Positions 25,487-58,202 of a stretch of 64,000 bases of DNA are shown in pieces. Origin of the DNA: Escherichia coli (GTDB lineage Bacteria; Pseudomonadota; Gammaproteobacteria; Enterobacterales; Enterobacteriaceae); the NCBI RefSeq assembly GCF_011045215.1, contig NZ_CP049201.1; one strand, written 5' to 3'. The position numbers and the translations under genes were made by a program. The notes below the pieces were generated by a model, which saw only the letters and a program-made list of their open reading frames with translations, searched no databases and had not been told where the DNA came from. Position 1 is the first letter of the stretch; each line of letters starts with the position of its first letter.

Positions 25487-25576
25487 AGCCAGCCAATCTT
25501 TTGTATGTCTGTGCGTTTCCATTTGAGTATCCTGAAAACGGGCTTTTCAGCATGGAACGTACATATTAAATAGTAG

Positions 25577-25942
<366 letters not shown>

Positions 25943-38291: not shown

Positions 38292-38821
38292 TCCAGGTAT
38301 TCGTCTTTCCATTTCACGTAATTATTCGCGGAGTAACGTAACCCAGCCTTCTCTTCATCACTTAACGGGCGGATCTGTTTGACGGGACTACCGAGATACA
38401 GATATCCGCTCTCCAGCCGTTTATTTTGTGGGACCAGACTACCCGCACCAATCATCACATCATCTTCTACTATTGCGCCATCAAGTAAAATTGAGCCCAT
38501 CCCAACCAAAACTCGATTGCCAATGGTGCAGCCGTGGAGCATCACCTTGTGACCAACAGTGACATCTTCGCCAATGGTTAATGGGTTGCCATCTGGGTTG
38601 TACGAGGATTTATGAGTGACATGCAACATACTGCCATCCTGGATATTGGTGCGTGCTCCGATCTGTACATAATGTACATCTCCACGAATCACAACGAGCG
38701 GCCAGATCCCCACATCATCAGCCAGACGAACGTCACCAATCACGACACTGCTATCGTCGATCATTACGCGCTGACCGATTTGTGGAAAAAGATCGCGGTA
38801 TGGGCGTAAAACATCAGACAT
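38267..38821 (-). CDS. yrdA: gamma-carbonic-anhydrase-like hexapeptide-repeat protein YrdA
   Basis: MSDVLRPYRDLFPQIGQRVMIDDSSVVIGDVRLADDVGIW start at 38821; the 293-aa track ORF is an upstream extension across the rrnD promoter region. Confidence 0.88.
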   Translation of the reverse strand: MSDVLRPYRDLFPQIGQRVMIDDSSVVIGDVRLADDVGIWPLVVIRGDVHYVQIGARTNIQDGSMLHVTHKSSYNPDGNPLTIGEDVTVGHKVMLHGCTIGNRVLVGMGSILLDGAIVEDDVMIGAGSLVPQNKRLESGYLYLGSPVKQIRPLSDEEKAGLRYSANNYVKWKDEYLDQGNQTQP

Positions 38822-38973
38822 ACTTACCTCAGCAATAAATGATTTACTAATGACTTTGGGGGCATTATTGGCCTTGTGCAAGTCTTTTAGTATGCAAAAA
38901 AGCACCGTTTTGTGTGCGATTGCAGCAAAAAGGGTGAAAAAACAACAAACAGAAAAAAAGATCAAAAAAATAC

Positions 38974-39001
38974 TTGTGCAAAAAATTGGGATCCCTATAA
39001 T
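38974..39001 (+). promoter_or_regulatory. rrnD promoter P1
   Basis: ttgtgc-N16-tataat with GC-rich discriminator gcgcctcc and an A-rich UP element upstream (38953-38973). Confidence 0.8.
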
Positions 39002-39081
39002 GCGCCTCCGTTGAGACGACAACGTGAAACACTTCACAGGATGGTCGGAACAACGAAGAGAAAAAACCCTGAAATTCAGGG

Positions 39082-39110
39082 TTGACTCTGAAAGAGGAAA
39101 GCGTAATATA
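39082..39110 (+). promoter_or_regulatory. rrnD promoter P2
   Basis: ttgact-N17-taatat about 105 bp downstream of P1. Confidence 0.75.
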
Positions 39111-39149
39111 CGCCACCTCGCGACAGTGAGCTGAAAGCCGCGTCGCAAC

Positions 39150-39169
39150 TGCTCTTTAACAATTTATCA
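39150..39169 (+). promoter_or_regulatory. rrn leader boxA antitermination element
   Basis: tgctctttaacaatttatca matches the boxA consensus. Confidence 0.8.
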
Positions 39170-39293
39170 GACAATCTGTGTGGGCACTCGAAGATACGGA
39201 TTCTTAACGTCGCAAGACGAAAAATGAATACCAAGTCTCAAGAGTGAACACGTAATTCATTACGAAGTTTAATTCTTTGAGCATCAAACTTTT

Positions 39294-40835
<1,542 letters not shown>

Positions 40836-40903
40836 CCTTAAAGAAGCGTTCTTTGTAGTGCTCACACAGATTGTCTGATGAAAATGAGCAGTAAAACCTC
40901 TAC

Positions 40904-40980
<77 letters not shown>

Positions 40981-41022
40981 AATTTGCACGGCAAATTTGA
41001 AGAGGTTTTAACTACATGTTAT

Positions 41023-41098
41023 GGGGCTATAGCTCAGCTGGGAGAGCGCCTGCTTTGCACGCAGGAGGTCTGCGGTTCGATCCCGCATAGCTCCACCA
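41023..41098 (+). tRNA. alaU: tRNA-Ala (anticodon UGC)
   Basis: ggggctatagctcagctgggagagcgcctgctttgcacgcagg...ctccacca. Confidence 0.97.
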
Positions 41099-41161
41099 TC
41101 TCTGTAGTGATTAAATAAAAAATACTTCAGAGTGTACCTGCAAAGGTTCACTGCGAAGTTT

Positions 41162-41176
41162 TGCTCTTTAAAAATC
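41162..41176 (+). promoter_or_regulatory. spacer boxA element
   Basis: tgctctttaaaaatc upstream of 23S. Confidence 0.7.
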
Positions 41177-41272
41177 TGGATCAAGCTGAAAATTGAAACA
41201 CTGAACAACGAAAGTTGTTCGTGAGTCTCTCAAATTTTCGCAACTCTGAAGTGAAACATCTTCGGGTTGTGA

Positions 41273-44175
<2,903 letters not shown>

Positions 44176-44268
44176 ACAACGCCGAAGCTGTTTTGGCGGA
44201 TTGAGAGAAGATTTTCAGCCTGATACAGATTAAATCAGAACGCAGAAGCGGTCTGATAAAACAGAATT

Positions 44269-44388
44269 TGCCTGGCGGCCGTAGCGCGGTGGTCCCACCT
44301 GACCCCATGCCGAACTCAGAAGTGAAACGCCGTAGCGCCGATGGTAGTGTGGGGTCTCCCCATGCGAGAGTAGGGAACTGCCAGGCAT
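44269..44388 (+). rRNA. rrfD: 5S ribosomal RNA, copy 1
   Basis: tgcctggcggccgtagcgcggtggtcccacctgacccc...ctgccaggcat, 120 nt. Confidence 0.97.
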
Positions 44389-44400
44389 CAAATTTAGCGT

Positions 44401-44476
44401 GCTGATATGGCTCAGTTGGTAGAGCGCACCCTTGGTAAGGGTGAGGTCCCCAGTTCGACTCTGGGTATCAGCACCA
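44401..44476 (+). tRNA. thrV: tRNA-Thr (anticodon GGU)
   Basis: gctgatatggctcagttggtagagcgcacccttggtaagggtgagg...atcagcacca. Confidence 0.97.
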
Positions 44477-44513
44477 CTTTTTAGGTTAAAGTTCGGCAGA
44501 TTAGAAAAGAATT

Positions 44514-44633
44514 TGTCTGGCGGCAGTAGCGCGGTGGTCCCACCTGACCCCATGCCGAACTCAGAAGTGAAACGCCGTAGCGCCGATGGTAGTGTGGGGC
44601 CTCCCCATGCGAGAGTAGGGAACTGCCAGACAT
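44514..44633 (+). rRNA. rrfF: 5S ribosomal RNA, copy 2
   Basis: tgtctggcggcagtagcgcgg...ctgccagacat, 120 nt; distal 5S after thrV identifies the rrnD-type architecture. Confidence 0.96.
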
Positions 44634-44645
44634 CAAATCAAGCGA

Positions 44646-44675
44646 AAGGCCATCCGAAAGGATGGCCTTTTTGCT
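44646..44675 (+). terminator. rrnD terminator
   Basis: aaaggccatcc-gaaa-ggatggccttttt. Confidence 0.85.
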
Positions 44676-44693
44676 TTTCGAACTAACATTCAA

Positions 44694-44910
44694 TTAATGG
44701 ATTACCTGCGATAAAAATGCCCTCGTACGCTCTGATTTAGGATGCGCAAAAAATTCATCAGGTGCAGCTTGCTCCACTATTTCCCCACGATCCATAAAAA
44801 TTACCCGGTCAGCGACGGTTCGTGCAAACCCCATCTCATGTGTTACACACAACATTGTCATACCCGACTGCGCCAGCCCAATCATCGTATCCAGCACCTC
44901 TTTCACCATC
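44694..44910 (-). pseudogene. yhdZ: yhdZ 3' fragment (ABC ATPase C-terminus, H-loop region) cut off by the IS insertion
   Basis: 71-aa remnant MVKEVLDTMIGLAQSGMTMLCVTHEMGFARTVADRVIFMDRGEIVEQ; its ATG is adjacent to the IS end. Confidence 0.85.
44905..44910. repeat. target-site duplication ACCATC (copy 1)
   Basis: Identical 6-mer abuts both IS ends and maps to the yhdZ ..EMVK.. codons. Confidence 0.75.
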
Positions 44911-47412
<2,502 letters not shown>

Positions 47413-47419
47413 AGTGTCC

Positions 47420-48526
47420 TCAATGCGGTGTACGCCCGGTAGTAAAACGTTTTTCCAGATGTTGGCTATAACGTGACATGCTGAAACAGAAGATCCAGTA
47501 GATCAGCGCGGCGAAAACATACCCTTCCGTCGACATACCCAACCAGGCGGGATCAACGGTTGCCTGCTGAACGCTACTGAAAAGATCGAACAACCCGATG
47601 ATGATCACCAGGCTGGTATCTTTGAAGAGTGCGATGATGGTATTTACCAGCCCAGGAATTACCAGCTTCAACGCCTGTGGCAGAATAACCAGCCCCTGAG
47701 TTTTCCAGTAACCCAATGCCAGTGACTCTGCCGCTTCATATTGCCCTTTAGGCAGCGCCTGTAATCCGCCTCGCACGACTTCCGCAACATATGCTGACTG
47801 AAACAGGATCACGCCAACCAGCGCGCGGATCAGTTTGTCGATACTGGTGCCTTCTGCCATAAACAACGGCAGCATGACCGAAGACATAAACAATACGGTA
47901 ATCAGCGGTACGCCGCGCCAGAACTCGATAAAAATGACCGATAAGATACGCACAATCGGCATATGGGAGCGGCGACCTAACGCCAGTAAGATCCCCCACG
48001 GTAGCGCCCCCGCAATCCCAACGGATGCAATAATTAAAGTTAGCGTCAGCCCGCCCCATTGCCGGGTTTCAACCCGCTCAAGAGCAAAAAAACCGCCATA
48101 CATCAGCCACCAGACAATCAGTGGGTAAATCACCGCCCAGGCCGCAATATAGCGACCGCGATGCGGGAGTATTTTCCAGAACATTGGTGCGATCGACACA
48201 AGCCCAATCAGTAATGCGAGGTTAATTCGCCAGCGTTGGTCGTGTGGGTAAAGCCCATACATAAACTGACCAAATCGTTCGTGGATGAAGACCCAACAGG
48301 CACCAGCTTTTGTGCAGTCGGCACGCGTTGAGCCAACCCAGTTAGCCTGCAAAAATGCCCAGTTCAGCAACGGTGGGATCAGTTCCCACATCAACCATAT
48401 GCAGCCAATAGTCAGCAGGCTATTGCTCCAGCTGGAGAACAGATTTTTTCGCACCCACACCATCGCGCGGTTTGAGTTATGGCTCGCCGGGCGCGGGGGA
48501 TGAGACAGCAATACTTTTGTCATCAT
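47420..48526 (-). CDS. yhdY: amino-acid ABC transporter permease YhdY
   Basis: 368-aa polytopic ORF (start may be the second Met at 48523). Confidence 0.9.
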   Translation of the reverse strand: MMTKVLLSHPPRPASHNSNRAMVWVRKNLFSSWSNSLLTIGCIWLMWELIPPLLNWAFLQANWVGSTRADCTKAGACWVFIHERFGQFMYGLYPHDQRWRINLALLIGLVSIAPMFWKILPHRGRYIAAWAVIYPLIVWWLMYGGFFALERVETRQWGGLTLTLIIASVGIAGALPWGILLALGRRSHMPIVRILSVIFIEFWRGVPLITVLFMSSVMLPLFMAEGTSIDKLIRALVGVILFQSAYVAEVVRGGLQALPKGQYEAAESLALGYWKTQGLVILPQALKLVIPGLVNTIIALFKDTSLVIIIGLFDLFSSVQQATVDPAWLGMSTEGYVFAALIYWIFCFSMSRYSQHLEKRFTTGRTPH

Positions 48527-48532
48527 GACTCC

Positions 48533-49714
48533 TTAGCGTTCAACGATCGCGATGCGGCGGTTATAGATATTCATCAGCAGCGAGATAGTCAGGCTGATAA
48601 TCAGATAGACCGACATGGTCATGGCTATCGTCTCGATGGCTTGCCCCGTCTGATTGAGCACGGTGCCGGCAAACAGCGAAACCATATCGGGATAGCCAAT
48701 AGCGGCGGCAAGAGAGGAGTTTTTGACGATGTTGAGATACTGGCTGGTTAACGGTGGAATAATCACCCGCAATGCCTGGGGAATAATGACCTGGCGTAGC
48801 GTAACCGGGTTGGGTAATCCCAGTGACCGAGCCGCTTCATGTTGACCATAAGGCACTGCCTGGATCCCAGCGCGGATAATCTCGGCGATAAATGCAGATG
48901 TATAAACCGAAAGTGCCAGCGTTAAGGCTGCCAGTTCAGGAATTAAAACCATCCCGCCGCGGAAGTTAAAGCCTCGTAGGGCTGGGACATCCCAGTGTAG
49001 TGCTGCGCCAAAAAGCCATTGCGCCAGTAAAGGCAAACCAATGATCAACACTGCGGCGATCGGCCAGGTGCGGCGCAGTTGTCCGGTCTTTATCTGGTAT
49101 GTTTTATTAAAGCGGAATAGCCCAACAGAAAGGACTATAGCCATAACAACAGCCAGGATAAACGCAATAAATCCGTCTCCCAGCTGCGGTGACGGAATAT
49201 AAAGCCCACGATTGCTCAAAAAGGCCAGATCAAACGCGCTCACAGTCTGGCGTGGTCCGGGCAAATTGCGCAACACGGCAAAGTACCAGAAGAAGATTTG
49301 CAGCAGCGGGGGAATATTACGGAAGATCTCAATATAAATTGTGGAAAGCTTTCGTAGCAGCCAGTTATCCGAAAGTCTCGCCAGACCGATAAAGAAGCCC
49401 AAAACAGAAGCGAACACAATACACAATGCAGAAACCAGTAGCGTATTGAGTAAGCCGACAATAAAAACGCGTCCGTAGGTGTCGCCCTGCTGGTAATCTA
49501 TCAAATGCTGGACAATACCGAAGCCGGCGCCGCGATCCAGAAAGGCAAAACCTGAAGTAATGCCACGATTATTGAGATTCGTTACAGTGTTGTGAAATAA
49601 CCAACCAACAATGCCGACAACAGCAACAACGGCAAGGATCTGGAATAACCAGGCACGAACCGTAGGGTTGGCAAAGGAGAGTGAGCCTTTAACGGTTGAG
49701 CGGCGATGAGACAT
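48533..49714 (-). CDS. yhdX: amino-acid ABC transporter permease YhdX
   Basis: MSHRRSTVKGSLSFANPTVRAWLFQ start; the track ORF extends 6 codons upstream. Confidence 0.9.
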   Translation of the reverse strand: MSHRRSTVKGSLSFANPTVRAWLFQILAVVAVVGIVGWLFHNTVTNLNNRGITSGFAFLDRGAGFGIVQHLIDYQQGDTYGRVFIVGLLNTLLVSALCIVFASVLGFFIGLARLSDNWLLRKLSTIYIEIFRNIPPLLQIFFWYFAVLRNLPGPRQTVSAFDLAFLSNRGLYIPSPQLGDGFIAFILAVVMAIVLSVGLFRFNKTYQIKTGQLRRTWPIAAVLIIGLPLLAQWLFGAALHWDVPALRGFNFRGGMVLIPELAALTLALSVYTSAFIAEIIRAGIQAVPYGQHEAARSLGLPNPVTLRQVIIPQALRVIIPPLTSQYLNIVKNSSLAAAIGYPDMVSLFAGTVLNQTGQAIETIAMTMSVYLIISLTISLLMNIYNRRIAIVER

Positions 49715-49781
49715 AGAAACCTCGGAAAGCATAACGCTGAAGAGAGCGCCGCCGTAGCGACGCTCGTTACCTCACACCGAC

Positions 49782-50807
49782 TTAACGCACGGGCGGCGCG
49801 TACTGAATACCGCCGTTATTCCAGAGATTATTTTGCCCACGTTTAATTTTCAGCGGGCTTTCTGAACCTACGTTACGCTCAAAAATTTCCGAGTAGTTAC
49901 CCACCTGTTTGATGATGTTATAGGCCCATTTATTATCCAACTTCAGATCCTTGCCGTAATCGCCTTCTTTACCCAGCAGATGTGCCATATCAGGCGTTGC
50001 TGGATTAGCCGCTTTTTCATCGACGTTCTGGGAATTGATGCCCATCTCTTCAGCATTTAGCATGGCGAAAAGCGTCCAGCGTACAATCGAGAACCATTCA
50101 TCATCGCCACGACGAACTACCGGCCCAAGCGGTTCTTTAGAGATAACCTCCGGTAAGACAATCCATTCAGCCGGGTTGCTTAATTTGATGCGCAGGGCAT
50201 ACAGTTGGGATTGATCCGAAGCCAGCGTATCGCAGCGACCAGATTCCAGTGCCTTCGCTGATTCGTCAGAGCGATCGAAAGTCACTGGTGTGTACTTCAT
50301 ATTGTTTGCCTTGAAATAGTCGGCGACGTTGAGTTCGGTATCAGTACCCGCCTGAATACAGACGGTAGCGCCATCCAGTTCTTTCGCGCTTTTTAGCCCC
50401 GCTTTATCGTGCGTCAGGAAGCCTATGCCGTCGTAATAAGTGACGCCAGTAAATGCCATTCCCATCCCGGCATCGCGAGATGAAGTCCAGGTCGTATTAC
50501 GGGAGAGCAAATCCACCTCCCCTGACTGTAAAGCGGTGAAGCGTTCTTTTGCAGTGAGCGGGGTATATTTCACTTTCGTGTCGTCACCAAATACAGCAGC
50601 GGCAACACCACGACAAATATCAACATCAATACCTGAAAATTTACCGTCAGCATCGGCATAAGAGAACCCAGGTAATCCATCACTGATCCCGCATTGCACA
50701 AAACCTTTTTTCTGTACGGCATCAAGCGTCGCGCCAGCATGCGCCTGATTTGCAACGGCAAGCAGCACGCTGGCGGCAGCCAGTGTGGCTATCATCATCT
50801 TTTTCAT
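49782..50807 (-). CDS. yhdW: amino-acid ABC transporter periplasmic binding protein YhdW
   Basis: 341-aa ORF with signal peptide MKKMMIATLAAASVLLAVANQAHA. Confidence 0.9.
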   Translation of the reverse strand: MKKMMIATLAAASVLLAVANQAHAGATLDAVQKKGFVQCGISDGLPGFSYADADGKFSGIDVDICRGVAAAVFGDDTKVKYTPLTAKERFTALQSGEVDLLSRNTTWTSSRDAGMGMAFTGVTYYDGIGFLTHDKAGLKSAKELDGATVCIQAGTDTELNVADYFKANNMKYTPVTFDRSDESAKALESGRCDTLASDQSQLYALRIKLSNPAEWIVLPEVISKEPLGPVVRRGDDEWFSIVRWTLFAMLNAEEMGINSQNVDEKAANPATPDMAHLLGKEGDYGKDLKLDNKWAYNIIKQVGNYSEIFERNVGSESPLKIKRGQNNLWNNGGIQYAPPVR

Positions 50808-51096
50808 AATGCTTCCTGTGAGGCGAAAATTATCGTTATAGGACGTTTGGGAAACGTCTTTTACCTGTCTGTGGCCATCCTCTTATAAGCAAAAGTAGTG
50901 CCAGCTTTTGCGCACGATTTCGCGTCGCAATAAGCTGAGTGTAGACAGGAAATAATAAAAACAGCGCCCCGCAATGGTGCGAAAATGAAACATGCGCCAC
51001 ATTTTGGCGCAAAATATTTACGCGTGTTTTACTAAGCAGAATAATGATTGTTAGCGTGAGTATATTTCTGGTGGGAAGTGTGAAAATTAAATTGAT

Positions 51097-51125
51097 GCGT
51101 TATTTCGAAAGCGGCGAAATAACGC
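51097..51125. repeat. perfect 11-bp inverted repeat with 7-bp spacer in the yhdW-yhdV intergenic region
   Basis: GCGTTATTTCG-aaagcgg-CGAAATAACGC. Confidence 0.6.
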
Positions 51126-51237
51126 GATATAACATGCTAAATCAGCAGGGAATTATCCAGCAGAATATAGCAATATTTTATCTTATGGAGAGATACTGTA
51201 TCGTTAAACAGAGCGCGGAAATCCGCGCCCTGTTCAG

Positions 51238-51459
51238 TTATTTCGACAGAGCGATGATCCCCATCGTCAGGCCAGCAACAGCTGCTGCCCCGCCAGCAAT
51301 AGCCCCAGCCGTTTCCCAGTTATCCTGAGTCGTGCCTTTCATACAGGTATTGGTGTGAACCAGACGACCCTGATCGTCATAAACCGGAACGCAGGGCGAA
51401 TCATGAGCACAGCCCGCCAGCAATGCGGTGAGCAATGCCACAGGAATTAATCTTTTCAT
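51238..51459 (-). CDS. yhdV: lipoprotein YhdV
   Basis: 73-aa ORF with lipobox LLAGC and Gly/Ala-rich C-terminus. Confidence 0.85.
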   Translation of the reverse strand: MKRLIPVALLTALLAGCAHDSPCVPVYDDQGRLVHTNTCMKGTTQDNWETAGAIAGGAAAVAGLTMGIIALSK

Positions 51460-51678
51460 GGTGTTACCTCAGTAATAAACGCTAACGCTTAATAAGTTAA
51501 CTCTCTTATTAACGTGCTGAATGCCATTTTATCACCGGAGGTTATAAATCTTGCGGAATGAATAATGACAAATTATGTGAATTGTAAAAATAGTGAAGGG
51601 AGCGGGAACTATAGAAAGTTTTTAAAGAGTGAGAAGAAGAATATCTTATTAATTTTTATGGGTTTCACTGAGAATAAT

Positions 51679-51702
51679 AAAGGCGCCCGAAAGCGCCTTT
51701 AT
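51679..51702 (-). terminator. rho-independent terminator after acrF
   Basis: Minus-strand aaaggcgc-tttcgg-gcgccttt followed by attattc. Confidence 0.7.
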
Positions 51703-51711
51703 GTTTCTGAT

Positions 51712-54700
51712 TTATCCTTTAAAGCAACGGCGGATCACCACAAAGAACACCGGTACGAAGAAGATTGCCAGCAACGTTGCAGAGACCATTCCTCCCATTA
51801 CCCCGATACCCACAGCGTTCTGCGCGCCACTGCCGGCACCGTTACTGATAGCCAGCGGTAATACGCCGAGAATAAAGGCGAGAGAGGTCATCAGGATAGG
51901 ACGCAGACGCATACGTACTGCCATTAGTGTCGCTTCAACAACATCTTTACCCTCTTTCTCCATGAGATCTTTAGCGAACTCAACAATCAAAATAGCGTTT
52001 TTGGCCGACAAGCCAATTGTCGTTAGCAAGCCCACCATAAAGTAGACGTCATTTTTTTGATTAAAGAGTGTCGCCGCCAGCAGCACGCCGACAATCCCTA
52101 ACGGCACGACCAACATAACCGAGACAGGAATTGACCAGCTTTCATAGAGTGCAGCAAGGCACAGGAAAACAACCACAAAGGAAATTGCTACCAGAGCGGG
52201 AGCCTGGTTTCCCGATAAGCGTTCCTGATACGACATACCCGTCCAGTCATAACCAATGCCCGCAGGTAATTTTGACGCAAGGTTTTCCATCAACGCCATG
52301 GCATCGCCGGAACTGGTTCCTGGCGCGGCTTCCCCCTGAATCTCCATTGACGGCAGACCGTTGTAGCGTTCCAGTCGCGGAGAGCCATACACCCAATGTG
52401 AAGTGGTAAAGGCAGAGAATGGCACCATTTCGCCGTTGGCGCTGCGGACATAAAGTTTATCGACATCTTCTGGCAGCATACGGAATTTGGCATCCGCCTG
52501 AACATACACCTTTTTCACGCGACCACGGTCGATGAAGTCGTTAACGTAAGTCCCACCCAGCGCCGTTGAAATGGTCTGATTGATGTCAGAAAGTGAAACA
52601 CCTAATGCCTGCGCCTTTTCCTGGTCAACTTCCAGTTTAAACTGCGCGGTGTCTTCCAGGCCATTAGGACGCACGCTGACTAAGCTGGCAGGATGTTGCG
52701 CCGCCATACCAAGCAACTGGTTACGGGCCTGGGTTAGGGCATCGTGACCCAGCCCAGCCTGATCAATTAACTCAAAGTCGAAACCCGTTGCCGTGCCCAG
52801 TTCAACAATGGCTGGCATGTTGAATGGAATGACAAAACCGTCGCGGATCTTGCCCAATTCCATTTTGGCACGATGGATTACCGCTTCCGCACTGTTTTCG
52901 TCACCATTACGCTCTTCCCACGGTTTCAGACTGACGAAGGCCATACCGGCGTTTTGTGCCTGGCCGCTGAAGCTAAAGCCGTTAACCGTAAAGACACTTT
53001 CAACGTTCGCTTTCTCGTTCTTCAGATAGTAATCCGTCACTTGATCCAACACTTTTTGCGTCCGCTCTTGCGTCGCGCCAGCGGGTAACTGAATCATGGT
53101 CAGAAAGACACCCTGATCCTCTTCAGGTAAGAAGGAAGACGGAAGACGTAAAAACAACACCACCATTCCTGCAACAATCAGCGCATAGATCAGTAAATAT
53201 CGTCCTGTGGAACCGAGGATTTTGCCGACGCTGTTGGTGTAGTGGTTAACGCTATGATCGAAGGTGGTATTAAACCAGCCGAAGAAACCGCCCTTATTTT
53301 CGTGATGCTCAGCAGAGACGGGTTTAAGCAGCGTTGCACATAACGCAGGGGTAAGAATCAATGCCACCAGAACAGAAAGCGCCATTGCCGAAACGATGGT
53401 GATAGAGAACTGGCGATAAATTGCCCCAGTAGAACCGCCGAAGAATGCCATCGGAATAAATACCGCTGACAGCACCATCGCGATACCCACCAGTGCGCCC
53501 TGGATTTGCGACATTGATTTTTCCGTCGCTTCTTTTGGCGGGAGCTTATCCTCCATCATCACGCGCTCGACGTTCTCCACCACCACTATCGCATCATCGA
53601 CGAGCAGCCCGATGGCAAGCACCATCCCGAACATCGTTAGTGTGTTGATGGAGTAACCAAAAGCGGCGAGGATGGCAAACGTCCCTAACAACACCACGGG
53701 TACCGCAATGGTGGGGATCAGCGTTGCTCGCATATTCTGCAAGAACAGATACATCACCAGGAACACCAGCATAATAGCTTCGAACAGTGTTTTTACCACT
53801 TCGTGAATAGAAAGCTGGACGAATGGCGTGGTGTCATAAGGGTAGAGAACCTTCATTCCCTGCGGGAAGAATGGCTGTAATTCCGCCAGTTTTGCCTTAA
53901 TGGCTTTCGCGGTATCGAGAGCATTCGCGCCGGTTGCCAGCTTAATACCCAGGCCCGCCGCCGGTTTTCCGTTGATGCGAGCGATAACGTTATAGTTTTC
54001 ACCGCCAAGTTCAACCCGTGCGACATCTTTCAGGCGTACCACCGAGCCGTCACTGTTTACGCGCAGGGTCACTTTGCCGAATTCTTCCGGATTTTTTAAC
54101 CGCGTCTGAGCAATAATCGAGGCATTCAACTGTTGCCCTGGTAACGCTGGCGTTCCGCCCAACTGTCCGGCAGCGATCTGATCGTTCTGTACCTTCAACT
54201 GGTTAATCACATCAACCGGTGTCAGTTTATATTTGTTTAGCAGATCGGCGTCCAGCCAGATACGCATCGCATACTGTGCGCCGAAAAGCTGTACGTCACC
54301 GACGCCATTCAGACGGCTAAGCGTATCTTTAACGTTAGAGGCCACATAGTCCGAGATATCGTCCTGTGTGGTGTCTGGGTTATCAGAGACAAAGCCCGCC
54401 ACCATCAAATAGCTGCTACTGGACTTTTCAACACTGATCCCCTGCTGCTGAACCTCCTGCGGCAGCAACGGCGTGGCGAGCTGGAGTTTGTTCTGCACCT
54501 GCACTTGCGCGATATCAGGATCGGTCCCGGACTGGAAGGTAAGGGTAATTGTCACGCTACCGGCGGAATCGCTGGTGGAGGACATATACATCAGGTTATC
54601 GATACCGTTCATATTCTGTTCGATAACCTGCGTCACCGTATCCTGCACGGTCTGCGCATCAGCGCCCGGATAGTTTGCTGAAACAGAAACCGCTGGCGGT

Positions 54701-54816
54701 GCAATGGTTGGATACTGAGCGACGGGCAATTGTAGGATCGCCAGTGCGCCAGCCATCATCAGAATAATGGCCAGCACCCATGCAAATATCGGTCGTCGAA
54801 TAAAAAAGTTTGCCAT
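51712..54816 (-). CDS. acrF: RND multidrug efflux transporter AcrF
   Basis: 1034-aa [39 protein letters not shown]. Confidence 0.96.
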
Positions 54817-54827
54817 GTCAGATTACC

Positions 54828-55985
54828 TTACTTCGATGCAGTATCTGCGGGGGTATCGGTAGTGGCTTTAACCTGCTCTCCCGGACGCGCTTTTTGCAGG
54901 CCGCTGACAATGACTTGATCGCCAGATTTCAGACCTTCGCTAATCAACCATTTATCGCCAATCGCCTGACTGGCAACGACAGGGCGCGCTTCAACCTGAC
55001 TTTTATCGTTAACAATCAGCACGGTTGCATCACCACGCGGTGTGCGGCTAACGCCTTGTTGCGGGATAAGAATGGCGTCAGGTTGGACGCCTTCATCAAT
55101 CCGTGCACGCACAAACATACCCGGCAAAAGCGTATGTTGCGGGTTAGGGAAGACAGCACGTAGGGTTATGGAGCCGGTGCTTTCATCAACGGTCACATCG
55201 GAGAATTGCAGCGTACCTTTCAGGGGATAGGTTTGACCGTTTTCCATGACCAACTCTACGTTGCTGGTGGCGTTTTCCTTATGCAAATTTCCTTGCTCTA
55301 CGGATTGCTTCAGCCTCATAAAATCGTTGCTGGATTGGGTCACATCAACGTAGATAGGATCGAGCTGCTGGACAGTTGCCAGTTCAGTCGTTTGCCCATT
55401 AGTGACAAGAGCGCCTTCGGTCACAGTTGATTTGCCGATACGTCCGCTAATTGGCGCAGTCACTTTGGTATAAGCAAGATTGATGCGAGCGCTTTCGACT
55501 GTGGCTTTTGCGGCAATCACGGCGGCATCGGCCTGGCGAGCATCAGCAATGGCCTGGTCGTACTCCTGCTGGCTGATGTATTTCGTACCCACGAGCGGAA
55601 CGTAACGTTTTACCGTCAAATGCGCGATGGCGGCGGCGGCTTCACTTTTCGCCAGTTCGCCTTTCGCGCTGTCATAATTTGCCTGATAGGTCGCGGGATC
55701 GATCTGGTACAGGGACTGGCCTGCTTGCACATCGCTGCCTTCAGTGAAATTGCGATTCAGTACGATCCCGCTAACCTGTGGGCGAACTTCGGCTATACGA
55801 TAAGCATTGGTGCGGCCTGGTAATTCAGTCTTAACTTCTAACGGGGCCGTTTTTACAATATGAACGGTAACCTGCGGTTCACCGACGTGAGCTTTCTCTT
55901 CTCCCTTATCGTTACAATCGGCGATTAAAGCCGCGGAGATCAGAATAAAGGAGGGCAGGAGGAAAAACCTGGCATGTTTCGTCAT
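54828..55985 (-). CDS. acrE: periplasmic adaptor (membrane fusion) protein AcrE
   Basis: 385-aa ORF with lipobox, immediately upstream of acrF. Confidence 0.96.
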   Translation of the reverse strand: MTKHARFFLLPSFILISAALIADCNDKGEEKAHVGEPQVTVHIVKTAPLEVKTELPGRTNAYRIAEVRPQVSGIVLNRNFTEGSDVQAGQSLYQIDPATYQANYDSAKGELAKSEAAAAIAHLTVKRYVPLVGTKYISQQEYDQAIADARQADAAVIAAKATVESARINLAYTKVTAPISGRIGKSTVTEGALVTNGQTTELATVQQLDPIYVDVTQSSNDFMRLKQSVEQGNLHKENATSNVELVMENGQTYPLKGTLQFSDVTVDESTGSITLRAVFPNPQHTLLPGMFVRARIDEGVQPDAILIPQQGVSRTPRGDATVLIVNDKSQVEARPVVASQAIGDKWLISEGLKSGDQVIVSGLQKARPGEQVKATTDTPADTASK

Positions 55986-56383
55986 TACTATTCCTCAAAA
56001 AACCAAAAGCGCGTTATTTACCCAAAAAGGCAACGCGTTAACTCGCAGAAAGAAAAATACAGTTCGCTATCCTACAAATTATCATTCGTCGATGTAAGGA
56101 ATAGTTATGAATACAGGCGTCTCAAGGCACATAAACACAAAAAAAGATTAATATTCTACTGTTTTATTTTGACGCGGGTTGAAAGAGGCAGAATTAAAAC
56201 CTCGTAAATTGAAATATATATTGATGTAGTGAATGTATCTTAGGTAAATAATATATATTATTTATTTAACGATTTATAGCAACTCAATATTAGCCTCTCG
56301 TATAAATACACATTAGGTGATAGATTAACCTTCGCTATTTTCTCACTCTGTGTCGAATATATTTATTTCCTGAATAATTAATC

Positions 56384-57046
56384 ATGGCAAAAAGAACCAA
56401 AGCCGAAGCTCTGAAGACCCGGCAAGAACTGATTGAAACTGCCATCGCCCAGTTTGCGCAGCATGGCGTAAGCAAGACGACGCTCAACGACATTGCCGAC
56501 GCCGCTAACGTTACGCGTGGCGCTATCTACTGGCACTTCGAAAACAAGACTCAACTGTTTAATGAGATGTGGTTGCAACAGCCTTCATTGCGGGAGTTAA
56601 TCCAGGATCACTTGACGGCTGGGTTAGAGCATGACCCGTTTCAACAATTGCGTGAAAAATTGATTGTCGGCTTGCAATATATTGCCAAAATTCCCCGCCA
56701 GCAGGCGTTGCTGAAAATCTTATATCACAAATGTGAATTTAATGATGAGATGCTGGCCGAGGGAGTGATACGCGAAAAGATGGGCTTTAATCCGCAGACT
56801 CTCCGTGAAGTATTGCAGGCGTGTCAGCAAAAAGGTTGTGTAGCAAATAACCTCGATTTAGATGTTGTGATAATTATTATTGATGGTGCCTTCAGCGGAA
56901 TTGTTCAAAACTGGTTAATGAATATGGCGGGTTATGATCTTTATAAACAAGCCCCCGCTCTTGTCGATAACGTATTAAGAATGTTCATGCCAGATGAAAA
57001 CATAACGAAATTAATTCATCAAACGAATGAATTAAGTGTCATGTAA
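56384..57046 (+). CDS. acrS: TetR-family repressor AcrS (EnvR)
   Basis: 220-aa ORF with N-terminal TetR HTH, divergent from acrEF. Confidence 0.93.
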   Translation: MAKRTKAEALKTRQELIETAIAQFAQHGVSKTTLNDIADAANVTRGAIYWHFENKTQLFNEMWLQQPSLRELIQDHLTAGLEHDPFQQLREKLIVGLQYIAKIPRQQALLKILYHKCEFNDEMLAEGVIREKMGFNPQTLREVLQACQQKGCVANNLDLDVVIIIIDGAFSGIVQNWLMNMAGYDLYKQAPALVDNVLRMFMPDENITKLIHQTNELSVM

Positions 57047-57054
57047 ATTCACAT

Positions 57055-57255
57055 TCAGTCCTGAAAATTCAGTTCGTCACAGTTAACCAGTTTTAGTGGA
57101 TTAACTGAGTTCATATTGCGGCATTTGTCTGTTTCTGTTGCCAGCAGTTCAATCCACTGCATCAGTAAAGTATCAAACAGAAAAACGAAGACAGCGAAAA
57201 CGACGAGCCACCAATACTTGCGAATCATTACCTGAGCCTGTGCATGTTTAACCAA
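57055..57255 (-). CDS. yhdU: small membrane protein YhdU
   Basis: ORF with a single TM segment (YWWLVVFAVFVFLF); true start may be the internal Met (MIRKYWW). Confidence 0.6.
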   Translation of the reverse strand: MVKHAQAQVMIRKYWWLVVFAVFVFLFDTLLMQWIELLATETDKCRNMNSVNPLKLVNCDELNFQD

Positions 57256-57311
57256 GTCTGGCAGGAAATATACACGAAATGAATAATCTGAAAACCAGGC
57301 TTACACATCCT

Positions 57312-58202
57312 TTACTTTGTAATGAGATCGGGGTCAACTTCGCTTAACCGGCTTCGTTTTGACAGGTTGCCGGTCTTTCTTTTTTTCACTTTCGCCAGTT
57401 CTTCCGCAGAGTAATGCGACGCGACATCCAGCCGTCGAAGCCCCATTTTGATGTACTCGCTGTTGATCTCAATACCAATGAATTTTCGTCCGCTGGCGAT
57501 GGCTACGGCACCGGTAGTAAAGCTACCAGCAAACGGGTCGAGAACGATATCGCCTGGGTTGGAAGAGGCGAGAATAATGCGTTTCAGTAAGGCTTCCGGT
57601 TTTTGCGTCGGGTGGTTTTCATATTCATCCATCAAATAACGCACGCGAGGAAAATCCCAGACGTTACCCGGTACTTTTTGATGATTGTAAGGCTGTGGAG
57701 GATTTTTGCGATAATCGATCAACGCGCGCTGCGATCCGGTTTTGGCTTCTACCAGAATAGCATCACCGTTGAATGTGTAGTTCTTTGCGTCTTTCACCAT
57801 CATCAGGATGGGTTCGTACATGGAGCCGTAGTGTTTTTTCGCCTGCACTCCAGAACTGTCATAGGACCAGACGATCCGACTTTTGATGGTAAAAAGCTTG
57901 CGGCACTGGAGATCGATAAAGGGCATGTTTTCCGTACTGTTCATGATGTACATGCTGCCCTGCTTTTTCAGAACGCGGTGGCACTCTGCAATCACTTCAA
58001 ACAGCCAGTCGATAAACAGATCTTCTTTCCAGGCTTCGATCAGACCATCAAAATTTTTACCGATGTTATACGGTGGGTCGGCAAAGATCAGATCGACGCT
58101 TTCAGTAGGTAGCTTTTTAAGTTCGGCAAGGGCATCACCGTGAATAATGGTCTTAGCTTCATTACCAAACCGGGTCGGTTCACATCCTGTTCTCATGGTC
58201 AC
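57312..58202 (-). CDS. yhdJ: orphan N6-adenine DNA methyltransferase YhdJ
   Basis: ORF with the DPPY motif (FADPPYNIG) and SAM-binding region; start may be 2 codons downstream. Confidence 0.92.
   Translation of the reverse strand: MTMRTGCEPTRFGNEAKTIIHGDALAELKKLPTESVDLIFADPPYNIGKNFDGLIEAWKEDLFIDWLFEVIAECHRVLKKQGSMYIMNSTENMPFIDLQCRKLFTIKSRIVWSYDSSGVQAKKHYGSMYEPILMMVKDAKNYTFNGDAILVEAKTGSQRALIDYRKNPPQPYNHQKVPGNVWDFPRVRYLMDEYENHPTQKPEALLKRIILASSNPGDIVLDPFAGSFTTGAVAIASGRKFIGIEINSEYIKMGLRRLDVASHYSAEELAKVKKRKTGNLSKRSRLSEVDPDLITK

What the first reader, a model, noticed from the sequence alone, without database searches (positions are those of the whole stretch)
44269..44633. The two 5S rRNA copies differ at four positions, one pair compensatory
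Copy 2 differs from copy 1 at positions 3 (C to T), 12 (C to A), 87 (T to C) and 117 (G to A). Positions 3 and 117 pair in helix I, so the C-G pair becomes U-A and the helix is kept, consistent with both copies being functional.
Basis: seen in the sequence. Interest (0 to 1): 0.3.

Follow-up and report, generated by a model that had tools for sequence, protein, structure and literature searches.

The report
Two 5S genes of E. coli rrnD
The two 5S ribosomal RNA genes are the well-known tandem pair (rrfD and rrfF) at the end of the E. coli rrnD operon; three of their four differences are the normal species-wide signature of rrfF, and only one (U87C) is peculiar to this strain, so the finding is correct but ordinary.

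Summary
Copy 1 (44269-44388) and copy 2 (44514-44633) are both 120 nt and differ only at C3T, C12A, T87C and G117A. Positions 3 and 117 pair in helix I, so C-G becomes U-A.

The locus is the end of an E. coli-type rrnD operon: 23S, rrfD, thrV (tRNA-Thr GGU), rrfF, terminator, then yhdZ.

The four differences have three separate histories:
- **U3-A117** is the hallmark of rrfF. It is in K-12 MG1655 and nearly all of 5,426 complete E. coli genomes. It is also in all 41 post-thrV 5S genes recovered from at least 16 named Enterobacterales genera, while 22 of 23 proximal copies keep C-G.
- **C12A** is an ordinary loop-A dimorphism, also found in K-12 rrfA, rrfB and rrfE.
- **T87C** lies in hairpin loop D and is private. 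No complete E. coli genome has it in rrfF, although it occurs sporadically in other 5S paralogues and in the rrfF of E. whittamii. It is either a rare neutral variant or a base-call error, and only reads can decide.

Both copies are intact 5S rRNAs (Rfam 92.8 and 89.0 bits against a threshold of 38). They share processing-site flanks and sit in one transcription unit, so "both functional" is supported but not demonstrated. This is already known and of low interest.

The parts
41273..44175 (+). 23S rRNA gene of the operon (rrlD); context for the 5S pair
   Evidence: Rfam RF02541, 2877 bits, full model
44269..44388 (+). 5S rRNA copy 1 = rrfD (proximal); canonical E. coli 5S sequence, C3-G117, C12, U87
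   Evidence: Rfam RF00001 92.8 bits; identical to K-12 rrfD/C/G/H
44401..44476 (+). tRNA-Thr (anticodon GGU) = thrV, between the two 5S genes
   Evidence: ARAGORN; Rfam tRNA 70.7 bits; annotated thrV in K-12
44477..44513 (+). 37-nt thrV-rrfF spacer ending in AGAATT, the same motif that precedes copy 1
   Evidence: identical spacer in K-12 and other E. coli
44514..44633 (+). 5S rRNA copy 2 = rrfF (distal); U3-A117, A12, C87
   Evidence: Rfam RF00001 89.0 bits; differs from K-12 rrfF (b3272) only at position 87
44516..44516 (+). rrfF nt 3 (U), pairs with nt 117 (A, window 44630): compensatory helix I pair
44630..44630 (+). rrfF nt 117 (A), partner of nt 3
44525..44525 (+). rrfF nt 12 (A) in loop A; a C/A dimorphism shared with K-12 rrfA, rrfB and rrfE
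44600..44600 (+). rrfF nt 87 (C) in hairpin loop D; the strain-private difference
44644..44671 (+). intrinsic terminator stem-loop (12 pairs) followed by a T run; the only terminator-like site on the + strand in 44100-44800, and it lies after copy 2

Best explanation
The segment is the distal end of the rrnD ribosomal RNA operon of an E. coli-lineage genome: 23S, 5S (rrfD), tRNA-Thr (thrV), second 5S (rrfF), terminator. Both 5S genes are transcribed on the one rrnD precursor. By inference from established rRNA processing, each is released by RNase E cuts in the conserved flanks, with RNase P acting at thrV. Both then fold into the standard three-armed 5S structure. The four differences have three histories. 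(1) U3-A117 is an old compensatory change in helix I that marks the post-thrV paralogue throughout many Enterobacterales. It most likely arose through a near-neutral U.G intermediate. It has probably escaped homogenisation because positions 3 and 117 lie about 10 nt from the ends of the block of homology between 5S copies, so gene conversion rarely reaches them. The interior, including loop A, is kept in step with the other copies. (2) C12A is an ordinary loop-A dimorphism among E. coli 5S paralogues. (3) U87C is a private transition in the unpaired hairpin loop D of this strain's rrfF, with no effect on secondary structure. It is probably a neutral lineage variant. Shown here: the anatomy, the pairing, and the population and cross-genus distribution. 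Inferred: the processing route, the edge-of-homology mechanism and the ribosomal use of the rrfF product.
For: Anatomy: Rfam and ARAGORN give 23S, 5S, tRNA-Thr(GGU), 5S. The only + strand terminator lies after copy 2 and there is no promoter-like site. The K-12 annotation names the same order rrlD-rrfD-thrV-rrfF. Synteny is yrdA-rrnD-yhdZYX-acrEF.

E. coli population: K-12 rrfF carries C3T, C12A and G117A but not T87C. The thrV-spacer-rrfF module is present in 5,392 of 5,426 complete genomes. 52 of 60 evenly sampled records differ from the window by a single base over 201 nt. 5,020 records have a 5S copy within one mismatch of the window's rrfF, and none is identical. Among the eight K-12 5S genes only rrfF has U3-A117, and C12A is also in rrfA, rrfB and rrfE.

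Other genera: a scan of species-representative genomes for the A117 3' end gave 52 loci. All 41 copies lying just after thrV have U3-A117. 22 of 23 proximal copies have C3-G117 and one has U3.G117. The loop-A sequence (nt 11-15) is the same in both copies in 19 of 23 genomes although it takes six states across genomes.

Energetics on the Rfam structure: C-G -23.5, U.G -20.8, U-A -21.4 and C/A -16.3 kcal/mol.

Flanks: GAATT before and CAAAT after both copies, and the same in most distal copies of other genera.

T87C: seen in rrfD of strain FT130, rrfA of Rb-50, two other chromosomal paralogues and a laboratory plasmid, and in the rrfF of E. whittamii. Other strains carry other private rrfF variants: C36T, C97T, C35T and G18A. 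The window is at best 99.4% identical to any complete E. coli genome over 17 kb, so a lineage-private base is unremarkable.

Literature: the two 5S genes around tRNA-Thr in rrnD are described in PMC4696680 and PMC7283268. The latter also reports that loop D can be opened and tethered to 23S rRNA with viable cells.
Against: No expression, processing or ribosome-incorporation data for the rrfF product were examined. The cross-genus scan required A117 and an exact 42-mer, so distal copies homogenised to G117 would not have been found. '41/41' therefore shows that A117 always comes with U3. It does not show that every distal copy keeps the pair. The scan was also not exhaustive: the E. coli type strain was not returned although it carries the pattern. 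The edge-of-homology mechanism is an inference, and one E. coli strain (Z1323CEC0017) has a conversion that did reach position 3. Whether C87 is real cannot be decided without reads.
Confidence: 0.88

Rival explanations
1. rrfF is a redundant, weakly constrained spare copy. It looks intact because gene conversion from the seven other 5S genes keeps repairing it, not because its own product is needed. On this reading the compensatory pair and U87C are tolerated drift.
For: About 8 of 60 evenly sampled E. coli genomes carry an extra variant or loss in the 201-nt thrV-rrfF stretch. Four of the five variant modules examined have a private substitution in rrfF itself, and the fifth has a C3/A117 mismatch allele. 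C3/A117 also occurs in two other species' loci. Strains deleted for rrfF-rrsD are viable laboratory stocks (PMC9825170). Loop-A states move in concert between copies.
Against: All 41 post-thrV copies with A117 have the matching U3, so helix I is under purifying selection. The module is kept in 5,392 of 5,426 E. coli genomes and across many genera with no truncation or decay. Its Rfam score is almost that of copy 1. Published work cited in PMC7283268 (Ammons et al. 1999, not read here) reports a marked fitness cost of 5S gene deletions.
Confidence: 0.15
2. The T87C difference (window 44600) is a sequencing or consensus error, so the two copies truly differ at only three positions, as in K-12.
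For: No rrfF in 5,426 complete E. coli genomes has C87. The best-matching genomes differ from the window over 581 nt only at this base. Repeated rRNA genes are error-prone in assembly and polishing.
Against: The same T>C change exists in independent assemblies in other paralogues and in E. whittamii rrfF. Other strains carry comparable private rrfF variants. The source lineage is at least 0.6% diverged from every complete genome. The change sits in an unpaired loop.
Confidence: 0.2
3. The U3-A117 pair is selected for its own sake. It would give the distal 5S a helix I that is partly orthogonal to that of the proximal copy on the same transcript, which discourages mispairing between copies, or it would mark a functionally specialised 5S.
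For: Duplex energies: native helix I -18.6 (copy 1) and -16.5 (copy 2) kcal/mol; cross-pairing of the copy 1 5' strand with the copy 2 3' strand only -11.8. The pair is paralogue-specific across many genera while the interior is homogenised.
Against: The other cross-pairing (copy 2 5' strand with copy 1 3' strand) is hardly penalised, at -15.9. The MFE fold of the 365-nt transcript still uses a swapped outer helix despite the mismatch. Co-transcriptional folding and rapid processing make the problem doubtful. The edge-of-homology explanation accounts for the same pattern without selection.
Confidence: 0.06

Closest known systems
E. coli K-12 rrnD distal genes rrfD (b3274), thrV (b3273) and rrfF (b3272)
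   Same: Same gene order, spacing, spacers and flanks. rrfD is identical. rrfF is identical at 119 of 120 nt, including U3, A12 and A117. The two 5S genes flanking tRNA-Thr in rrnD are described in PMC4696680 and PMC7283268. From memory and not verified here, the arrangement was first sequenced by Duester and Holmes, Nucleic Acids Res. 1980.
   Different: rrfF nt 87 is C here and U in K-12. The window has a single terminator directly before yhdZ, whereas K-12 has terminator 1, the rrF (TLR) small-RNA module and a second terminator (PMC8144298). yhdZ is interrupted by IS100 in the window.
Post-thrV 5S genes of other Enterobacterales (Citrobacter, Salmonella arizonae and diarizonae, Leclercia, Silvania, Dickeya, Pantoea, E. 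whittamii and others)
   Same: 5S, tRNA-Thr, 5S arrangement with a 34-41 nt spacer in most. The distal copy has U3-A117 and the proximal copy C3-G117. The distal copy of E. whittamii is identical to the window's rrfF, including C87.
   Different: The loop-A sequence (nt 12-14) differs by genus and is usually shared by both copies of a genome. In the window, as in E. coli, S. diarizonae and C. sedlakii, the two copies differ at nt 12.
Intragenomic 5S rRNA microheterogeneity in E. coli (C12A in rrfA/B/E, C92T in rrfA, G13T in some strains)
   Same: Single-base differences between paralogues in loops, or differences that give wobble pairs.
   Different: Those variants are not compensatory double changes and are not tied to one paralogue across genera.

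Membership tests
Bacterial 5S rRNA (Rfam RF00001) | Covariance-model score above the curated gathering threshold over the full model | tested here: met
   92.8 bits (copy 1) and 89.0 bits (copy 2) against 38; model positions 1-120 matched and not truncated
Bacterial 5S rRNA (Rfam RF00001) | Helix I formed by the 5' and 3' ends, with all pairs standard | tested here: met
   Pairs 1-10 with 110-119 are standard in both copies; 3-117 is C-G in copy 1 and U-A in copy 2. Only the consensus 11-109 position is non-canonical, and it is the same in both copies.
Bacterial 5S rRNA (Rfam RF00001) | Location downstream of 23S rRNA in an rrn operon | tested here: met
   16S, tRNA-Ile, tRNA-Ala, 23S, 5S on the + strand at 39294-44388
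Bacterial 5S rRNA (Rfam RF00001) | Product incorporated into the 50S subunit with L5, L18 and L25 | not testable with these tools
   No expression or ribosome data are available for this strain
E. coli rrnD distal module (rrfD-thrV-rrfF) | Gene order 23S, 5S, tRNA-Thr(GGU), 5S, terminator | tested here: met
   same order as annotated in K-12
E. coli rrnD distal module (rrfD-thrV-rrfF) | Chromosomal neighbourhood: yrdA upstream, yhdZ-yhdY-yhdX-acrF downstream | tested here: met
   Window 38642-58000 is collinear with E. coli PapM-32-1 yrdA..yhdJ at 99.3-99.7% identity, apart from the IS100 insertion
E. coli rrnD distal module (rrfD-thrV-rrfF) | rrfF signature U3, A12, A117 relative to rrfD | tested here: met
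Decaying or pseudogenised rRNA copy (considered) | Broken helices, truncation, or a CM score near or below threshold | tested here: not met
   Full-length match at 89.0 bits with no broken pair. The energy of the consensus structure is -21.4 against -23.5 kcal/mol for copy 1.

The most novel reading that the evidence does not exclude
The U3-A117 pair of the post-thrV 5S gene is actively maintained, not merely spared by gene conversion. It would either keep the two helix I stems on one precursor from cross-pairing, or mark a 5S species with a distinct role such as the surplus or extraribosomal 5S discussed in PMC7283268. The strain's extra loop-D change (U87C, near 23S H39/H42) would then be a further step of divergence of that paralogue.
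Probability: 0.06. Interest if true: 0.5.

Novelty: already known. Interest (0 to 1): 0.1.

Why it matters
It matters little. The tandem 5S genes of rrnD and the rrfF sequence are textbook features of E. coli, annotated in K-12. The finding serves as a sanity check that the window is an rrnD locus of the E. coli lineage. It also gives a tidy example of compensatory evolution in an rRNA helix, combined with concerted evolution of the rest of the gene. The one strain-specific item, U87C in loop D of rrfF, is at most a rare neutral allele and could serve as a lineage marker if reads confirm it.

Tried and rejected
- **MFE folding.** Folding each 5S alone does not reproduce the accepted 5S structure for copy 1 and gives different folds for the two copies. 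I rejected it as evidence and evaluated both sequences on the Rfam consensus structure instead.
- **Full-transcript fold.** The MFE fold of the 365-nt rrfD-thrV-rrfF transcript predicts a swapped helix between the copies. I treated this as an artefact of a purely thermodynamic model. It gives no support to the anti-mispairing idea.
- **Primary literature.** Duester and Holmes 1980 by DOI and Ammons et al. 1999 by PMC id are not held. The search for 'rrfF' returned mostly unrelated acronyms.
- **Source strain.** I looked for the source strain or a close relative that could show the state of nt 87. No complete E. coli genome exceeds 99.4% identity over 17 kb or shares the IS100 insertion, so this check was not possible.
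- **Other rrn operons of the same genome.** The window holds only one rrn operon, so K-12's eight 5S genes were used as a proxy.
- **Constraint on rrfF versus rrfD.** The identity bands of the search tool cannot separate 0 from 1 mismatch in a 120-nt query, and the best place per record is biased. I therefore made no rate comparison between rrfF and rrfD.

Full report
**What is there.** Rfam and ARAGORN place a complete rRNA operon on the + strand:

| Feature | Window coordinates |
|---|---|
| 16S rRNA | 39294-40835 |
| tRNA-Ile | 40904-40980 |
| tRNA-Ala | 41023-41098 |
| 23S rRNA | 41273-44175 |
| 5S rRNA (Rfam match) | 44271-44386 |
| tRNA-Thr (GGU) | 44401-44476 |
| second 5S rRNA (Rfam match) | 44516-44631 |

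The only terminator-like site on the + strand in 44100-44800 follows the second copy, at 44644-44671: 12 pairs and then a T run. No promoter-like site lies between the genes. Both 5S genes therefore belong to one transcription unit.

**Check of the observation.** A direct comparison gives four differences and no others: C3T, C12A, T87C and G117A.
- The Rfam covariance model pairs nt 3 with nt 117 in both copies, C-G in copy 1 and U-A in copy 2, with no non-canonical flag.
- On the Rfam consensus structure, positions 12 and 87 are unpaired, in loop A and the hairpin loop of the helix IV/V arm.
- In simulation, four random substitutions hit both sides of one pair and keep a standard pair in about 1% of trials.
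- The consensus structure scores -23.5 kcal/mol for copy 1 and -21.4 for copy 2. On the copy 1 background, the single-step intermediates score -20.8 (U3.G117) and -16.3 (C3/A117). The likely path was therefore through the nearly neutral G.U wobble.

**Identity of the locus.** The 581-nt stretch around the two genes matches 5,308 of 5,426 complete E. coli genomes over at least 80% of its length. Those genomes annotate it as 5S, tRNA-Thr, 5S and yhdZ. In K-12 MG1655 the same order is annotated rrlD, rrfD (b3274), thrV (b3273), rrfF (b3272). The window from 38642 to 58000 is collinear with yrdA-rrnD-yhdZYX-acrFE-acrS-yhdU-yhdJ of strain PapM-32-1 at 99.3-99.7% identity, apart from one insertion. 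No complete E. coli genome is more than 99.4% identical over the 17 kb downstream. E. whittamii and another Escherichia lineage are only 90-92% identical. The source is therefore a member of the E. coli (or Shigella) lineage that is not in that collection.

**Three histories for four differences.** Aligned with K-12 and with the best-matching strain, the window's copy 1 is identical to rrfD. Copy 2 differs from their rrfF at one base only, nt 87.

- **U3, A12 and A117 are the normal rrfF sequence.** The thrV-spacer-rrfF module is present in 5,392 of 5,426 genomes. 52 of 60 records sampled evenly down the ranking differ from the window by one base in 201. 5,020 records have a 5S copy within one mismatch of the window's rrfF, and none is identical.
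- **C12A is not specific to rrfF.** Among the eight K-12 5S genes, rrfC, D, G and H are canonical, rrfB and rrfE carry C12A, rrfA carries C12A plus C92T, and only rrfF carries U3-A117. C12A is thus a common loop-A dimorphism, and the helix I pair is the only paralogue-specific feature.
- **T87C is private to this rrfF.** A query covering nt 13-116 finds C87 in five E. coli records only. They are rrfD of FT130, rrfA of Rb-50, two other chromosomal 5S genes and a laboratory plasmid.

**Depth of the compensatory pair.** An exact-pattern scan of species-representative genomes for the 3' end with A117 (any base at 87) returned 52 loci. They come from Citrobacter, Salmonella enterica subsp. arizonae and diarizonae, Escherichia, Leclercia, Kluyvera, Klebsiella indica, Pluralibacter, Pseudocitrobacter, Superficieibacter, Silvania, Lelliottia, Dickeya, Pantoea, Xenorhabdus and others.
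- In all 41 cases where the 5S lies just after a thrV homologue, nt 3 is U.
- Of the 23 proximal copies visible in the same loci, 22 have C3-G117 and one has U3.G117.
- The loop-A sequence (nt 11-15) takes six different states across these genomes, yet it is the same in the proximal and distal copy in 19 of 23 genomes. The interior of the gene therefore evolves in concert while the terminal pair stays paralogue-specific.
- The distal copy of E. whittamii has exactly the window's rrfF sequence, C87 included. Given 90% overall identity, this is best read as a recurrent transition.
- Caveats: the scan was conditioned on A117 and on an exact 42-mer, so homogenised distal copies were invisible. It was also not exhaustive.

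**Mechanism.** Shown: both genes are structurally intact, sit in one transcription unit and carry the same immediate flanks. GAATT precedes and CAAAT follows each copy, and the same holds in most distal copies of other genera.

Inferred from established knowledge of E. coli rRNA maturation (from memory, not tested here): RNase E cuts in these AU-rich flanks, RNase P and 3' exonucleases release thrV, and both 5S species enter the 5S pool.

The persistence of U3-A117 next to an otherwise homogenised gene is most simply explained by position. The two sites lie about 10 nt inside the ends of the homology shared by 5S paralogues, so conversion tracts rarely include them. The requirement for pairing then explains why they are always found together. 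One natural E. coli strain, Z1323CEC0017, has an rrfF converted at nt 3 and 12 but not at 117, which leaves a C/A mismatch. This shows that such conversions occur and are rare.

Loop D, where U87C lies, approaches 23S H39 and the base of H42. It can even be opened and tethered to 23S rRNA in viable cells (PMC7283268). A U-to-C change there is therefore likely to be tolerated. Other strains carry comparable private rrfF changes: C36T, C97T, C35T and G18A.

**Rivals.**
- **rrfF as a weakly constrained spare copy maintained only by conversion.** This cannot be excluded. The frequency of private variants and the viability of rrnD deletions point that way. The invariable compensation at 3/117 and the retention of the module across genera point to selection on helix I.
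- **A base-call error at 44600.** This remains possible, because no other E. coli rrfF has C87. Only reads can settle it.
- **Selection for partly orthogonal helix I stems.** There is a small energetic rationale: -11.8 kcal/mol for the cross-paired outer helix against -18.6 and -16.5 for the native helices. However, the other cross-pairing is barely penalised, and the model MFE of the full transcript still swaps strands.

**Comparison with what is known, and verdict.** The extra 5S gene of rrnD around tRNA-Thr is described in the literature (PMC4696680; PMC7283268). The rrfF sequence is annotated in K-12. The finding is accurate, its interpretation is reasonable, and the feature is already known. 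The only new datum is a single private base in an unpaired loop. Interest is low.

Noticed in passing
window 44911-46864 (target duplication 44905-44911 and 46865-46871): A 1.95-kb IS100 element (IS21 family) is inserted in the ABC-transporter ATPase gene yhdZ just downstream of rrnD. It carries istA at 45756-46778 and istB at 44977-45759, both on the - strand, with imperfect terminal inverted repeats TGTCAACG.../...CGTGACA. The target ACCATC(T) is duplicated. No complete E. coli genome has this insertion.
   Followed up: partly
window 44634-44700: This rrnD ends in a single terminator directly before yhdZ. It lacks the rrF (TLR) small-RNA module and second terminator that follow rrfF in K-12 (PMC8144298). 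About 587 of 5,463 E. coli records match the window-type end at 99% identity or more.
   Followed up: partly
L065 (E. coli Z1323CEC0017, NZ_CP148409.1) 375-494: The rrfF of this strain carries only G117A, with C3 and C12 restored. This is a partial gene conversion that leaves a C3/A117 mismatch in helix I. C3/A117 is also seen in a C. portucalensis locus (L045) and a Leclercia MAG locus (L059).
   Followed up: partly
L061-L064 (four E. coli strains), rrfF: Other strains carry their own private single-base rrfF variants: C36T, C97T, C35T and G18A. Roughly 8 of 60 evenly sampled genomes have an extra change or loss in the thrV-rrfF stretch, which may hint at somewhat relaxed constraint on rrfF.
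   Followed up: partly
L007 (NZ_CP192742.1, 10.5-kb laboratory plasmid) 489-608: A laboratory-built plasmid carries a 5S gene with C12A plus T87C next to blaNDM-4. It is presumably an rrnB-derived vector fragment, and it has the same loop-D change as the window.
   Followed up: no
L057 (CACSKA010000008.1, labelled Chryseobacterium sp. 18061): A contig labelled Chryseobacterium carries a Citrobacter-type 5S, tRNA-Thr, 5S module with the same 5S variant pattern as Citrobacter sp. 18056 (L023) from the same project. The assembly is probably mislabelled or contaminated.
   Followed up: no
L039 (Pseudenterobacter timonensis) proximal 5S: The proximal copy carries G18A plus T65C on the two sides of the helix II pair 18-65 (G.U becomes A/C), and also T87C. 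This double change does not give a standard pair.
   Followed up: no
window 41166-41265 and 25507-25618: Rfam also reports StyR-44 in the spacer just upstream of 23S (106.9 bits) and the alpha-operon ribosome-binding-site element (102.7 bits). Both are expected in this chromosomal region of enterobacteria.
   Followed up: no
Genome-contig scan: The scan did not return the E. coli type strain, although (H69) shows that it carries the searched pattern. Absence from that scan is therefore not evidence of absence.
   Followed up: no
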